From Mobula hypostoma (taxonomy: Eukaryota): a stretch of 64,000 nucleotides of DNA. The notes beneath the pieces are model-generated. The model made no database searches, had not been told where the DNA came from, and saw only the letters and a list, made by a program, of their open reading frames with translations. Position numbers and translations under genes: made by a program. Position 1 is the stretch's first letter. Every line of letters starts with the position of its first letter. The stretch is taken from positions 1,984,001 through 2,048,000 of the forward strand of contig NC_086108.1 in assembly GCF_963921235.1 (NCBI RefSeq), read 5' to 3'. Shown here in pieces: positions 26,320 through 64,000 of the stretch.

Positions 26320-26713
26320 TTGGTTCTCTGATCTTGGCAATCCATTTGCAAAAGTTTCATCAGCATAAGAGGAGACACCACCAACGTGCTGCTGATTGTG
26401 GCATGTCCTCTGAATGCTTGGCTTTCATTTAATATTCAGCTGATTGGTCATTACGGAGGGACATAGGCACGTCAGTTGTGGCGGAGGGACAAACGGCAAA
26501 CTCTGGGTGTTGCAGCCTGGAATTTTGCCCGCACTGGTTCATAATAGGACTGAGCTCTATGTATCTGCTAACAGAACTGTTTGCAGAAAACCACACTTCT
26601 AGGAATTCCTTTGCATGCTGTGTGCTTACTCGCACCATGACTGTCATTGACACCCAGTTGACTTTGTGTCCCTCTTGATCTTCATGGGTAGAGACGAGGG
26701 AGAGTTGGTCATG
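26320..26713 (-). mobile_element. Second Penelope-like family remnant: endonuclease C-terminus plus pseudo-LTR
   Basis: The minus-strand frame from 26713 reads [57 protein letters not shown], matching the recalled PLE pattern H-x(3-4)-GH-x-F-x-W...REFLEAW-x-S...SIN-x-x-I. Downstream are CCAAT, an AT-rich box and a decayed hammerhead-like segment. Confidence 0.72.
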
Positions 26714-29700
26714 GGTAGAGATGAGGGGAGTTGTTCATGGGTAGAGACGAGGGAGAGTTGGTCATGGGTAGAGATGAGGGCAGTTGGTCACGGGTAGAGA
26801 TGATGGAGAGTTGTTCATGGGTAGAGACAAGGGGAGTTGGTCACGGGTAGAGACGAGGGGAGTTGGTCATGGGTAGAGAAGAGGGGAGTTGGTCATGGGT
26901 AGAGACGAGGGGAGTTGGTTATGGGTAGACACGAGGGAGAGTTGGTCATGGGTAGAGACGAGGGGAGTTGTTCATGGGTAGAGACGAGGGAGAGTTGGTC
27001 ATGGGTAGAGACGAGGGGGAGTTGGTCATCGGTAGAGACAAGGGGAGTTGGTCGCGGGTAGAGACGAGGGGAGTTGGTCATGGGTAGGGATGACGGAGCG
27101 TTGGTCACGAGTAGGGACGACAGAGCGTTGTTCATGGGTAGCGACGAGGGGAGTTGGTCACGGGTAGAGACGAGGGGAGTTGGTCATGGGTAGGGATGAC
27201 GGAGCGTTGGTCACGAGTAGGGACGACGGAGCGTTGTTCATGGGTAGCGACGAGGGGAGTTGGTCACGGGAGAGACGAGGGGAGTAGGTCATGGGTAGAG
27301 ACGAGGGGAGTTGGTCACGGGTAGAGACGAGGGGGAGTTGGTCACGGGTAGAGACGAGGGGGAGTTGGTCACGAGTAGAGACGAGGGCAGTTGGTCACGG
27401 GTAGAGACGAGGGAGACTTGGTCACGGGTAGAGACGAGGGGAGTTGTTCACGGGTAGAGACGAGGGAGAGTTGGTCACGGGTAGAGAAGAGGGGAGATGC
27501 TCACGGGTAGAGACGAGGGGAGTTGGTCACGGGTAGAGACGAGGGGAGTTGGTCACGGGTAGAGATGAGGGGGAGTTGGTCACGGGCAGGGACGAGGGGA
27601 GTTGGTCACGGGTAGAGACGAGGGGAGTTGGTCACGGGTAGAGACGAGGGGAGTTGGTCACGGGTAGAGATGACGGAGCGTTGGTCACGGGTAGAGACGA
27701 GGGGAGTTGGTCACGGGTAGATATGACGGAGCGTTGGTCACGGGTAGAGACAAGGGGAGTGGGTCACGGGTAGAGACGAGTGAGAGTTGTTCATGGGCAG
27801 AGACGAGGGGAGTTGTTCACGGGTAGACATGAGGGAGAGTTCGTCACGGGCAGGGACGAGGGGAGTTGGTCACGGGTAGAGACGAGGGGAGTTGGTCATG
27901 GGTAGAGATGACGGAGCGTTGGTCACGGGTAGAGATGAGGGGAGTTGGTCACGGGTAGAGATGACGGAGCGTTGGTCACGGGTAGAGACAAGGGGAGTGG
28001 GTCACGGGTAGAGACGAGTGAGAGTTGTTCATGGGTAGAGACGAGAGGAGTTATTCATGGGTAGAGACGAGGGAGAGTTGGTCACGGGTAGAGACGAGGG
28101 GAGCTGTTCACGGGTAGAGACGAGGGGAGTTGGTCACGGGTAGAGACGAGGGAGAGTTGGTCACGGGTAGAGACGAGGGGAGTTGGTCACGGGTAGAGAC
28201 AAAGGAGAGTTGGTCACGGGTAGAGACGAGGGAGAGTTGGTCACGGGTAGAGACGAGGGGAGTTGGTCACGGGTAGAGACGAGGGAGAGTTGGTCACGGG
28301 TAGAGACGATGGAGAATTGGTCACGGGTAGAGACGAGGGGAGTTGGTCTAGCGTAGAGACGAGGAGAGTTGGTCACGGGTAGAGACGAAGGGAGTTGGTC
28401 ACGGGCAGAGACGAGGGGAGTTGGTAACGGGTAGAGACAAGGGGAGTTGGTCACGGGTAGAGACGAGGGGAGTTGCTCACGGGTAGAGATGACGGAGCGT
28501 TGGTCACGGGTAGAGACAAGGGGAGTGGGTCACGGGTAGAGACGAGTGAGAGTTGTTCACGGGTAGAGACGAGGGGAGTTGGTCACGGGTAGAGACGAGG
28601 GGAGTTGGTCACGGGTAGAGATGACGGAGCGTTGGTCACGGGTAGAGACGAGGGGAGTTGGTCACGGGTAGATATGACGGAGCGTTGGTCACGGGTAGAG
28701 ACAAGGGGAGTGGGTCACGGGTAGAGACGAGTGAGAGTTGTTCATGGGCAGAGACGAGGGGAGTTGTTCACGGGTAGACATGAGGGAGAGTTCGTCACGG
28801 GCAGGGACGAGGGGAGTTGGTCACGGGTAGAGACGAGGGGAGTTGGTCATGGGTAGAGATGACAGAGCGTTGGTCACGGGTAGAGATGAGGGGAGTTGGT
28901 CACGGGTAGAGATGACGGAGCGTTGGTCACGGGTAGAGACAAGGGGAGTGGGTCACGGGTAGAGACGAGTGAGAGTTGTTCATGGGTAGAGACGAGAGGA
29001 GTTATTCATGGGTAGAGACGAGGGAGAGTTGGTCACGGGTAGAGACGAGGGGAGCTGTTCACGGGTAGAGACGAGGGGAGTTGGTCACGGGTAGAGACGA
29101 GGGAGAGTTGGTCACGGGTAGAGACGAGGGGAGTTGGTCACGGGTAGAGACGAAGGAGAGTTGGTCACGGGTAGAGACGAGGGAGAGTTGGTCACGGGTA
29201 GAGACGAGGGGAGTTGGTCACGGGTAGAGACGAGGGAGAGTTGGTCACGGGTAGAGACGATGGAGAATTGGTCACGGGTAGAGACGAGGGGAGTTGGTCT
29301 AGCGTAGAGACGAGGAGAGTTGGTCACGGGTAGAGACGAAGGGAGTTGGTCACGGGCAGAGACGAGGGGAGTTGGTAACGGGTAGAGACGAGGGGAGTTG
29401 CTCACGGGTAGAGATGACGGAGCGTTGGTCACGGGTAGAGACAAGGGGAGTGGGTCACGGGTAGAGACGAGTGAGAGTTGTTCATGTGTAGAGACGAGGG
29501 GAGTTGTTCACGGGTAGAGACGAGGGAGAGTTGGTCACGGGCAGGGACGAGGGGAGTTGGTCACGGGTAGCGACGAGGGGAGTTGGTCACGGGTAGAGAC
29601 GAGGGGAGTTGCTCACGGGTAGAGATGACGGAGCGTTGGTCACGGGTAGAGACAAGGGGAGTGGGTCACGGGTAGAGACGAGTGAGAGTTGTTCATGGGT

Positions 29701-62700: not shown

Positions 62701-64000
62701 AGGGATAGTTGGTCACGGGTAGAGACGAGGGGAGTTGGTCACGGGTAGAGACGAGGGGAGTTGGTCCCCGGTAGAGACAAGGGGGAGTTGGTCACGGGTA
62801 GAGACGAGGGAGAGTTGGTCACGGGTAGAGACGAGGGAGAGTTGGTCACTGGTAGAGACGAGCGGAGTTGGTCACGGGGCGAGACGAGGGGAGTAGGTCA
62901 CGGGTAGAGACGAGGGGAGCTGTTCACGGGTAGAGACGAGGGGAGTTGGTCACGGGTAGAGACGAGGGCAGCTGGTCACGGGTAGAGACGAGGGGAGTTG
63001 TTCATGGGTAGAGACGAGTGAGAGGTGTACATGGGTAGAGACGAGTGAGAGTTGTTCATGGGTAGAGATGAGGGGAGTTGTTCACGGGTAGACACGAGGG
63101 AGAGTTGGTCACGGGTAGAGACGAGGGGAGCTGTTCACGGGTAGAGACGAGGGGGAGTTGGTCATGGGTAGAGACGAGGGGGAGTTGGTCATGGGTAGAG
63201 ATGATGGAGAGTTGGTCACGGGTAGAGACGAGGAGAGTTGGTCATGGGTAGAGACGAAGGGAGTTGGTCACGGGTAGTGACGAGGGGGAGTTGGTCATGG
63301 GTATAGACGAGGGGAGTTGGTCACGGGTAAAGATGAAAGGGAGTTGGTCACGGGTAGAGACGAGGGGAGTTGGTCACGGGTAGAGACGAGGGGAGTTGGT
63401 CATGGGTAGAGATGACGGAGAGTTGGTCATGGGTACAGACGAGAGGAGTTGGTCATGGGTAGAGATGACGGAGAGTTGGTCACGGGTAGAGACGAGGGGC
63501 GTTGGTCACGGGTTGAGACGAGGGAGAGTTGGTCATTGGTAGAGACGAGTGGTGTTGGTCACGCGTAGAGACGAGGGGAGTTGGTCACGAGTAGATACGA
63601 GTGGAGTTGGTCACGGGTAGAGACGAGTGGAGTTGGTCACGGGTAGAGACGCAGGAGAGTTGGTCACGGGTAGAGACGAGTGGCGTTCGTTACGCGTAGA
63701 GATGAGGGGAGTTGGTCATGGATAGAGACGAGGGGAGTTGTTCTCGGGTAGAGTCGAGGGGAGTTGTTCACGGGTAGAGACGAGGGGAGTTGTTAACGGG
63801 TAGAGACGAGGGGAGTTGGTCACGGGTAGAGACGAGAGGAGTTGGTCACGGGTAGAGATGAGGGGAATTGGTCACGGGGAGAGACGACGGGGAGTTAGTC
63901 ACGGGGAGAGACGAGGGGAGTTGTTCACGGGCAGAGAGGAGGGGTGTTGGTCACGGGTAGAGAGGAGGGGTGTTGGTCACGGGTAGAGACGGGGGGAGAT
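26681..64000. repeat. Large tandem satellite of 26/27-bp monomers (>37 kb, about 1,400 units, runs off the window)
   Basis: Consensus GAGACGAGGG(G|AG)AGTTGGTCACGGGTA in one orientation throughout; no non-satellite insertion seen. Confidence 0.99.

What the first reader, a model, noticed from the sequence alone, without database searches (positions are those of the whole stretch)
26429..64000. A >37-kb satellite apparently born from nine codons of a Penelope GIY-YIG endonuclease gene
Seen: on the minus strand the first monomer (26713-26687) is CAT GAC CAA CTC TCC CTC GTC TCT ACC (HDQLSLVST). It continues with no junction and in frame as CAT GAA GAT CAA GAG GGA CAC AAA GTC AAC TGG ([11 protein letters not shown]) into ORF 26429-26653 (...[25 protein letters not shown]). 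The 27-bp unit is bounded by a CATGA microhomology (CATGAC...CATGAA). Both versions persist in the array as the GGTCA and GTTCA monomer variants. Known: this peptide resembles the C-terminal half of PLE GIY-YIG endonucleases (recalled, not searched). Inference: slippage between the two CATGA sites duplicated the segment, which then amplified about 1,400-fold in place, so the founder locus of the satellite is still visible.
Basis: partly seen in the sequence, partly recalled or inferred. Interest (0 to 1): 0.9.

Follow-up and report, generated by a model that had tools for sequence, protein, structure and literature searches.

The report
Satellite born inside a Penelope-like retroelement
A 115-kb satellite of 26/27-bp units grew in place from nine codons of one broken Penelope-like retroelement copy, whose two halves still flank the array, so this is an unusually clear case of a known way that satellites arise.

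Summary
The array starts at 26687, runs off the window and ends 77.5 kb further on. It is 114,808 bp, 4,347 units, all in one orientation. Its near flank (26323-26686, minus strand) is the 3' part of a dispersed retroelement. Other copies carry the 27-bp unit once, followed by the same HEDxEGH codons. The family has reverse transcriptase followed by a GIY-YIG nuclease, the Penelope-like layout.

Corrections: the commonest unit is a derived 26-bp form. The event is not unique: nine other copies of the element carry 2 to about 49 units at the same spot. The element has three CATGA sites exactly 27 bp apart.

These ten loci account for every tandem junction in the assembly: 1,013 of 1,013 and 1,322 of 1,322.

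Satellites derived from transposable elements are known, so this is a new member of a known kind.

The parts
26323..26686 (-). 3' part of one 5'-truncated Penelope-like element copy. It holds the C-terminal half of the GIY-YIG nuclease frame ([11 protein letters not shown]...SAEY, codons 26686-26432), the stop codon at 26429-26431 and the 3' tail down to about 26323.
   Evidence: Homology to seven other genomic copies spans window 26323-26713 (alignment). The family search gave 905 candidates. The stop lies at the same alignment column as in copy L033.
26687..26713 (-). Terminal 27-bp unit of founder type (CATGACCAACTCTCCCTCGTCTCTACC = HDQLSLVST), in frame with the element's downstream codons.
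   Evidence: It differs at one base (position 18, C for A) from the majority of 18 single-copy family members.
26687..64000 (-). The part of the 26/27-bp satellite array that lies in the window. The array continues to C50:2125494 (window-equivalent 141494). In all it is 114,808 bp and 4,347 units in one orientation.
   Evidence: TRF, unit density beyond the window, bounds, and wrap-around alignment into units.

Best explanation
One 5'-truncated copy of a very abundant Penelope-like retroelement inserted here. Inside its nuclease-coding part, a 27-bp segment (nine codons, HDQLSLVST) bounded by CATGA was duplicated in tandem, and the array then grew in place to 4,347 units (114.8 kb). This pushed the two halves of the element 115 kb apart.

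The first duplication most likely arose by slippage or unequal exchange between CATGA sites. These stand exactly 27 bp apart, three times in a row, in the element (inferred).

During growth, a derived unit became dominant (shown). It carries CAT>CGT, a private CTA>CTC change and a 1-bp deletion (27 to 26 bp). Growth also went by duplication of blocks of several kb (shown as lags). The array is non-coding DNA. No cellular function is shown or needed to explain it.
For: Shown:
- Near junction. The element's 3' part abuts the array in register and in frame.
- Far junction. The element's upstream 59 bp (GCCAAACTGGG...CATGAACATCACCCGACTGTAAAGCCA) abuts the first unit in register at C50:2125495-2125553.
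- The unit stands in single copy at this place in the other family members held. The majority sequence of 18 such copies differs from the edge unit at 1 of 27 bases.
- The peptide is old. It is conserved in a 46%-identical RVT_1 + GIY-YIG protein from another source, so the element gave rise to the satellite and not the reverse.
- The private C at unit position 18 is found in both edge units and in 4,117 of 4,347 units. The family-majority unit occurs 0 times in the array.
- Ancestral CAT-type units pile up at both edges: 10 of the last 14 and 5 of the first 5, against 17.4% overall. Only 6 of 4,334 sliding windows of 14 reach 10.
- Units lie 6% from the modal unit, whereas this copy's 3' part has a terminal branch of 0.26 (family median 0.14). 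The bulk of the array is therefore younger than the insertion.
- All junction matches in the assembly fall in ten loci that lie inside copies of this element.
- Block duplication: unit identity peaks at lags of 219, 142 and 286 units (up to 0.17, baseline 0.02).

For the CATGA step:
- Nine other copies carry expansions with the same unit boundaries, and L016 has a 54-bp duplication spanning two CATGA intervals.
- CATGA is the commonest state at all three sites among the 18 single copies (6, 12 and 12 of 18), but only 3 of the 18 have it at all three.
Against: - The first duplication was not observed. It could have arisen during reverse transcription rather than at the locus.
- A second locus (L009, C50:4.195 Mb) has the same derived 26-bp unit and shares three derived bases in the upstream 27 bp that occur nowhere else at 0 mismatches. 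Sequence has therefore moved between loci, and the direction is unknown.
- CAT>CGT is the majority state in several separate arrays but in only 1 of 18 single copies. Simple independent drift does not explain this.
- The far junction and the 115-kb length rest on one assembly. No contig bridges the near junction with 31 letters on both sides.
- Other 26/27-bp C-rich satellites share an 11-mer with the unit. Their relation was not tested.
Confidence: 0.85

Rival explanations
1. The array was not born at this locus. It was seeded from elsewhere (the C50:4.195 Mb locus, or extrachromosomal circles of units) and entered this element copy by homology with its single 27-bp unit. It then expanded here.
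For: L009 is a different element copy. Its 3' part is 72% identical to the window's, it keeps about 22 bp that the window copy lacks in the alignment (the stretch is visible in L009's printed sequence), and its flanks are unrelated. Even so, it carries the window's derived 26-bp unit. A 401-bp piece of the window array matches it at 93%. Its upstream 27 bp share three derived bases with the window's, found nowhere else at 0 mismatches. Transfer between element copies has therefore happened at least once.
Against: The window array is about 240 times larger than L009's (4,347 against about 18 units). Its edge units are of the ancestral 27-bp CAT type that L009 lacks. The private C at position 18 is shared by the edge units and the bulk of the array. 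The simpler direction is from the window locus to L009.
Confidence: 0.08
2. A sub-line of the element already carried a variable tandem repeat at this spot. Each array-bearing copy inherited several units at insertion, for example through template slippage of the reverse transcriptase at the CATGA sites.
For: Ten copies have expansions with identical unit boundaries. Twenty-seven bp keeps the frame. CGT-type units recur in several arrays.
Against: Array-bearing copies do not cluster on a tree of the 3' parts: 7 changes for 9 rows, shuffled mean 7.7, and 196 of 500 shuffles are as low. The tree is weakly resolved, with 0 of 24 inner branches starred. Only ten loci carry any junction, against at least 19,646 candidate nuclease fragments. 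Arrays carry private variants also present in their own edge unit, for example CTCTATC in all units of L016. The 5' truncation points differ between copies.
Confidence: 0.05
3. Assembly artefact: the two junctions belong to different loci, or the array length is wrong.
For: Long satellite arrays are hard to assemble. One search gave no contig that bridges the near junction with 31 letters on each side. The far junction was not checked against reads.
Against: There is no N in 100 kb beyond the window and the orientation is uniform. Only two loci in the assembly hold the 26-bp unit, and each has its own pair of element halves. Contigs of the source organism's runs match 26332-26600 and 26580-26692 with 0 differences.
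Confidence: 0.02

Closest known systems
Tetris foldback transposon and the TIR-220 satellite of Drosophila virilis (PMC4079207; abstract and outline read)
   Same: Internal repeats of a transposable element served as building blocks, and large arrays arose inside the element. Short and long arrays coexist in one genome.
   Different: Tetris is a DNA foldback element. Its 220-bp unit is non-coding and already repeated in the terminal inverted repeats. Here a retroelement's coding segment, single-copy in the other copies examined, became the unit.
Satellites from coding parts of LINEs: PROsat (Phodopus, L1 ORF2), Pvc20 (Phoca, L1 ORF2) and chicken HinfI/SCR1 (CR1 3'UTR plus part of ORF2), as tabulated in the review PMC9659126 (passages and table rows read)
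   Same: The source segment lies in the protein-coding part of a retroelement without long terminal repeats.
   Different: These come from another element class. The passages I read do not say whether a birth locus with both element halves is preserved. 'Penelope' occurs 0 times in that review.
HviSat02-2707 of Harttia catfishes, 'connected to Penelope elements' (PMC11955569; passages read)
   Same: A satellite related to a Penelope-like element in a fish genome.
   Different: Its unit is 2.7 kb, found by similarity search. The passages read describe no 27-bp coding unit and no flanking halves.
Satellites from tandem repeats in the 3'UTR of Ogre LTR retrotransposons (PMC7004042, search listing only; PisTR-A in passages of PMC9659126)
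   Same: Short arrays inside dispersed element copies coexist with long arrays of the same unit.
   Different: These are plant LTR elements, and the source is a hypervariable non-coding region that is already tandemly repeated.

Membership tests
Satellite DNA derived in place from a transposable element | Long head-to-tail array of one unit | tested here: met
   114,808 bp and 4,347 units in one orientation.
Satellite DNA derived in place from a transposable element | The unit is homologous to an internal segment of a dispersed element family that normally carries it once | tested here: met
   The seven other copies aligned carry the unit once (two of them, L004 and L008, only its 3' part). 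The majority of 18 single copies differs from the edge unit at 1 of 27 bases.
Satellite DNA derived in place from a transposable element | Both halves of the element flank the array in register | tested here: met
   Near end. Far end. This rests on one assembly.
Satellite DNA derived in place from a transposable element | The element sequence is ancestral to the satellite, not captured from it | tested here: met
   The peptide is conserved in the 46%-identical RVT_1 + GIY-YIG protein P0002. No array lies outside element copies.
Penelope-like element with GIY-YIG endonuclease | GIY-YIG domain recognised by profile | tested here: met
   The window peptide alone gave 0 Pfam families, and two degenerate copies gave none. 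The relative P0002 passes Pfam GIY-YIG (24.6 bits, cut-off 22.6, residues 248-283). That stretch aligns to the family's [25 protein letters not shown]. The feature is met for the family. The window copy keeps only [13 protein letters not shown] and the C-terminal half.
Penelope-like element with GIY-YIG endonuclease | Reverse transcriptase directly upstream of the nuclease in the same element | tested here: met
   P0002 has RVT_1 at 35.7 bits (cut-off 29.6). Its reverse-transcriptase part matches upstream of the nuclease in the genome's own copies L029, L014 and L033 at about 50-67% identity by tblastn.
Penelope-like element with GIY-YIG endonuclease | Reverse transcriptase falls in the Penelope-like clade on a tree with reference elements | not testable with these tools
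   No curated reference set (Repbase or Dfam) is on hand. The name rests on the domain layout, which I recall as the hallmark of nuclease-bearing Penelope-like elements.
Penelope-like element with GIY-YIG endonuclease | Terminal repeats with a hammerhead ribozyme motif | tested here: inconclusive
   Rfam at gathering thresholds gave 0 matches in 7 loci (31,507 bases). These loci hold only 1.5-3 kb of flank and mostly 5'-truncated copies.

The most novel reading that the evidence does not exclude
The three CATGA sites 27 bp apart make this coding stretch of the element a built-in seed for tandem arrays. One genome holds a graded series of separate births, at 2, 2, about 4, 8, 13, 14, 27 and 49 units, plus one runaway of 4,347. 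The arrays drift in parallel towards CpG-creating changes (CAT>CGT). Array sequence can also hop between dispersed copies of the element (window locus and C50:4.195 Mb). The roughly 20,000 element copies would then act as landing pads through which a satellite can colonise new sites.
Probability: 0.35. Interest if true: 0.65.

Novelty: new member of a known kind. Interest (0 to 1): 0.5.

Why it matters
The origin of a satellite can rarely be traced, because arrays lose their flanks and their source sequence. Here the source codons, both junctions, the ancestral edge units, the derived core and a series of small sister arrays are all readable in one assembly.

This gives a concrete system for three questions: how a single-copy segment becomes tandem, at what size an array starts to run away, and whether arrays spread between copies of the parent element. 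It does not change the accepted picture that transposable elements seed satellites.

Tried and rejected
- **Pfam on the window peptide and on single degenerate copies.** No GIY-YIG match. Membership had to be shown through relative P0002.
- **Profile of 13 family translations against PDB sequences.** 0 hits at E up to 10.
- **Rfam, for the hammerhead ribozyme.** 0 hits.
- **Pfam on a reverse-transcriptase stretch of L029.** The call failed because the frame has 3 stops. I relied on tblastn instead.
- **Weaker matches of the array query at 65-78% identity.** The four I fetched are other satellites:
  - L040 is (GAGAGGAGGG)n.
  - L042 is GA-rich.
  - L041 has a 27-bp unit, CTCTACCCAACTCCCCCTCCCCAGTAC.
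  - L043 has a 26-bp unit, ACCAACTCCCCCAGCCCCCACCTCCC. Its left flank is not element-like.

  I counted about 63% identity between the L041 unit and the element's unit by eye, which I do not take as evidence of kinship.
- **Placing the 27-bp-type units along the array.** I first read the listing as showing these units only near the 3' edge. There is no smooth gradient of unit types along the array, only blocks.
- **Strict higher-order repeat.** None found, only block duplications.
- **RNA.** No RNA holder was listed.
- **Organism B, junction.** No contig bridges the junction by 31 letters on both sides.
- **Organism B, depth.** Array word depth relative to the unique flank is about 10-100 times lower than in organism A. 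Contig depth is not copy number, so I treat this as a weak hint only.
- **Earlier findings of the scan.** Nothing relevant.
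Full report
**1. The observation**

On the minus strand the window reads ...CATGACCAACTCTCCCTCGTCTCTACC (26713-26687), then CATGAAGATCAAGAGGGACACAAAGTCAACTGG.... This translates in one frame as [20 protein letters not shown]...[25 protein letters not shown]...SAEY, with the stop at 26429-26431. 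The stop-to-stop frame is 26429-26734.

TRF finds a single array at 26682-63998: period 26, 1418.8 copies, 86% matches, score 53,430. GC is 0.58-0.61 and GC skew about +0.6. One correction is needed: the commonest unit is 26 bp, not 27, so the array as a whole has no reading frame. Frames inside it are at most 96 aa.

**2. Where the window lies and how far the array goes**

The window is G000:C50:1984001-2048000, in an assembly of 3,475,679,493 bases in 200 contigs. I fetched the next 100 kb.
- Units continue at 8-32 per kb, all in the same orientation and with no N, up to about 7.8 kb into L025. After that there are none.
- The array spans C50:2010687-2125494, which is 114,808 bp.
- A wrap-around alignment to the 27-bp unit cuts it into 4,347 units of 781 distinct types.

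**3. The near flank is a dispersed retroelement that carries the unit once**

A search of the genome with 26429-26700 gave 905 candidates. The 39 other places scored are 77-82% identical, and most matches run to the very end of the query, that is, into the first unit.

BLAST of 25900-27100 against seven of these copies puts the homology at window 26323-26713. In the alignment, five of the other copies read ...CATGACCAACTCTCCCTaGTCTCTACC CATGAAGATCgAGAGGGGCAC..., with the unit in single copy. L004 and L008 keep only the unit's 3' part. Upstream of the unit the other copies continue with sequence that the window lacks at this point.

Among 18 single-copy members, the column majority of the unit is CATGACCAACTCTCCCTAGTCTCTACC. 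This is one base from the window's edge unit (position 18, A rather than C, a synonymous Leu site).

**4. The far end**

Read on the minus strand, the sequence just upstream of the first unit (L025 7553-7495 = C50:2125553-2125495) is GCCAAACTGGGAGAAAACTATCCACAAGGATC CATGAACATCACCCGACTGTAAAGCCA. It is followed directly by CATGAACAACTCTCCCTCGTCTCTACC.

This is the element's own upstream sequence (compare L005, L010-L017). In frame it reads [28 protein letters not shown]. The element copy is 5'-truncated there. It abuts the 3' end of a LINE-type element whose frame scores RVT_1 at 68.9 bits.

The picture is one element copy split by the growth of an internal segment.

**5. What the element is**

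Translations of other copies give ...[91 protein letters not shown].

A genome search with one 83-aa translation gave 19,646 candidates. All 150 that were scored have E at or below 1.2e-20.

Pfam does not recognise the degenerate single copies. A database relative does pass. P0002 (407 aa, E 1.7e-33) scores RVT_1 at 35.7 bits (cut-off 29.6) and GIY-YIG at 24.6 bits (cut-off 22.6). It aligns to copy L033 at 65 of 140 identities, E 6e-45, including [21 protein letters not shown]. Its reverse-transcriptase part matches upstream of the nuclease in the genome's own copies L029, L014 and L033.

Reverse transcriptase followed by a C-terminal GIY-YIG nuclease is, from my own knowledge, the layout that defines nuclease-bearing Penelope-like elements. 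I could not place the reverse transcriptase on a reference tree, and Rfam found no hammerhead motif in the short flanks I hold.

**6. Direction of descent**

The nine codons are conserved in a distant relative and in 11 of the 12 other family translations aligned. They are therefore an old part of the protein and were not captured from a satellite.

The array carries the window copy's private C at position 18 in 4,117 of 4,347 units, and the family-majority unit occurs 0 times.

Units of the ancestral CAT type make up 17.4% overall. They make up 10 of the last 14 units at the 3' edge and 5 of the first 5 at the 5' edge. Only 6 of 4,334 sliding windows of 14 reach 10, and two of those are at the very edge. 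Array ends are expected to keep old variants.

Units lie on average 6% from the modal unit, and random pairs differ by 11.3%. The copy's 3' part sits on a terminal branch of 0.26, against a family median of 0.14. Most of the amplification therefore came after the insertion.

**7. Make-up of the array**

| Feature | Count (of 4,347 units) |
|---|---|
| Modal unit CGTGACCAACTC-CCCTCGTCTCTACC | 465 |
| Units with the 1-bp deletion (26-bp type) | 2,318 |
| Full 27-mers | 1,807 |
| Other forms | 222 |
| Units starting CGT | 3,128 |
| Units starting CAT | 755 |
| Position 6 = C | 3,830 |
| Position 6 = A | 412 |

There is no strict higher-order repeat. Identity between units peaks at lags of 219, 142 and 286 units (up to 0.17, baseline 0.02). 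This indicates duplication of blocks of 4-8 kb. Unit types vary in blocks along the array, not as a gradient.

**8. The same spot expanded in other copies**

A 401-bp piece of the array matched several other places. In nine fetched loci the units lie between the element's own upstream and downstream parts, in the same register. Eight of the nine have both parts; L013 lacks the 3' part.

| Locus | Place | Units |
|---|---|---|
| L010 | C63:58.81 Mb | about 49 |
| L011 | C64:56.16 Mb | about 27 |
| L009 | C50:4.195 Mb | about 18 |
| L012 | C63:57.70 Mb | about 14 |
| L013 | C80 | 13 |
| L014 | C36 | 8 |
| L016 | C45 | about 4, including a 54-bp duplication |
| L015 | C81 | 2 |
| L017 | C64:53.03 Mb | 2 |

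These copies have different 5' truncation points and private variants. L016's CTCTATC, for example, is present in every one of its units.

On a tree of the 3' parts the array-bearing copies do not cluster: 7 changes for 9 rows, shuffled mean 7.7, and 196 of 500 shuffles are as low. The tree is star-like and weakly resolved, with 0 of 24 inner branches starred.

In the element, CATGA stands at three sites exactly 27 bp apart: CATGAACATCAACTGGCTGTAAAGCGG | CATGACCAACTCTCCCTAGTCTCTACC | CATGAAGATC. It is the commonest state at each site among the 18 single copies, and is intact at all three in 3 of them.

**9. No arrays elsewhere**

| Junction pattern (up to 1 mismatch) | Matches in the assembly | Reversed-pattern control | Matches in the loci I hold |
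|---|---|---|---|
| 27-bp type | 1,013 | 0 | 926 in the window-locus array + 87 in the nine loci = 1,013 |
| 26-bp type | 1,322 | 0 | 1,310 in the window-locus array + 12 in L009 = 1,322 |

At this stringency, every tandem junction in the assembly lies inside a copy of this element. The derived 26-bp unit exists only at the window locus and at C50:4.195 Mb. Unassembled satellite cannot be excluded.

**10. The odd locus, L009**

L009 is a different element copy. Its 3' part is 72% identical to the window's, it keeps about 22 bp that the window copy lacks in the alignment (the stretch is visible in L009's printed sequence), its 5' end is longer, and its flanks are unrelated.

Even so, it carries the window's 26-bp unit. 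Its upstream 27 bp share three derived bases with the window's, and this pattern is found nowhere else at 0 mismatches. Those three bases are the unit's own states at the same register.

Two explanations fit: conversion from neighbouring units, or ectopic exchange between the two loci. The loci lie 2.07 Mb apart in the same orientation on one contig. I cannot tell which explanation is right, or in which direction sequence moved.

**11. A second unexplained point**

CAT>CGT is the majority state in the window array, L009, L010 and L012, and is mixed in L011, L013 and L014. It is found in only 1 of 18 single copies.

Yet the arrays differ at position 18, and L012's unit type occurs 0 times in the window array. 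Either there is a bias towards this CpG-creating change, or arrays exchange sequence.

**12. Independent data**

Runs of the source organism (X1, X2) hold 26332-26600 and 26580-26692 with 0 differences.

Runs labelled as another organism (X5, X6) hold three relevant contigs:
- 26333-26600 with 10 differences in 268 letters. This is far closer than any paralogue in the genome (at most 82%), so it is the orthologue of this copy.
- 26580-26711 with 5 differences.
- An 82-letter contig over the three edge units with 3 differences.

No contig bridges the junction with 31 letters on both sides. An array at the orthologous site in organism B is therefore likely but not shown.

**13. Comparison with what is known**

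Satellites that arise from transposable elements are well documented:
- Tetris/TIR-220 in Drosophila virilis (PMC4079207, abstract read).
- Ogre 3'UTR repeats (PMC7004042, search listing only; PMC9659126, passages).
- LINE ORF2-derived PROsat and Pvc20, and chicken CR1-derived HinfI (table rows in PMC9659126).
- A 2.7-kb catfish satellite connected to Penelope elements (PMC11955569, passages).

My three literature searches and the passages I read did not turn up a satellite traced to the GIY-YIG coding part of a Penelope-like element. They also did not turn up a case with both element halves kept around a 100-kb array. These searches were narrow, and I do not claim that no such case is in print.

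**14. Verdict**

It is a new and unusually legible member of a known kind. Interest is moderate (0.5). Most of that interest lies in the graded series of sister arrays and in the hints of exchange and biased change.

Noticed in passing
window 25221-25487 (+): Open frame CGLLYIGKTQCRLGDRFAEYLRSV...LIFRLGSLQPDGMNIDFSNFR. It looks like the GIY-YIG part of a different Penelope-type element on the opposite strand, 1.2 kb from the array. Pfam GIY-YIG scores only E 0.19 and 12.5 bits, below the cut-off, and there is no hit at E up to 0.01.
   Followed up: partly
L025 8032-8808 (-) and 9524-10000 (-) (C50:2126032-2126808 and 2127524-2128000): Just beyond the far end of the array lies a LINE-type frame (RVT_1 68.9 bits, plus ALKBH8_N 29.5 bits) that abuts the truncated element. 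Further out lies another frame that passes Pfam GIY-YIG (22.9 bits, cut-off 22.6).
   Followed up: partly
window 15206-15844 and 740-854: A 60-bp tandem repeat (10.6 copies, 95% matches) and a 48-bp repeat (2.4 copies). They share the motif AGGTGAGACCAGGTGAGGG.
   Followed up: no
L041 (C45:73302300-73304000) and L043 (C59:10145100-10145700): Two other C-rich satellites with 27-bp (CTCTACCCAACTCCCCCTCCCCAGTAC) and 26-bp (ACCAACTCCCCCAGCCCCCACCTCCC) units. They share CCAACTCCCC with the unit studied here. L043's left flank is not element-like. One search shows the C45 satellite spanning at least 12 kb.
   Followed up: partly
L016 (C45:16720630-16720880): A 54-bp duplication that spans two CATGA intervals (the upstream HEHQLAIKW unit plus the HDQLSLVS unit), beside a simple 27-bp duplication.
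   Followed up: partly
L013 (C80:6271100-6271595): The 13-unit array is cut off after CGTGACCAAG by unrelated sequence, and the element's 3' part is missing.
   Followed up: no
P0003: A 1,488-aa Schistosoma margrebowiei 'unnamed protein product' with FERM-type Pfam domains matches the nuclease query at E 2.2e-15. It may be an element fragment swallowed by a gene model.
   Followed up: no
window 26323-26686: This copy's 3' part sits on a longer terminal branch (0.26) than any other of the 27 copies on the tree (median 0.14) and has a private deletion of about 22 bp. Whether closeness to the array raises the mutation rate is open.
   Followed up: no
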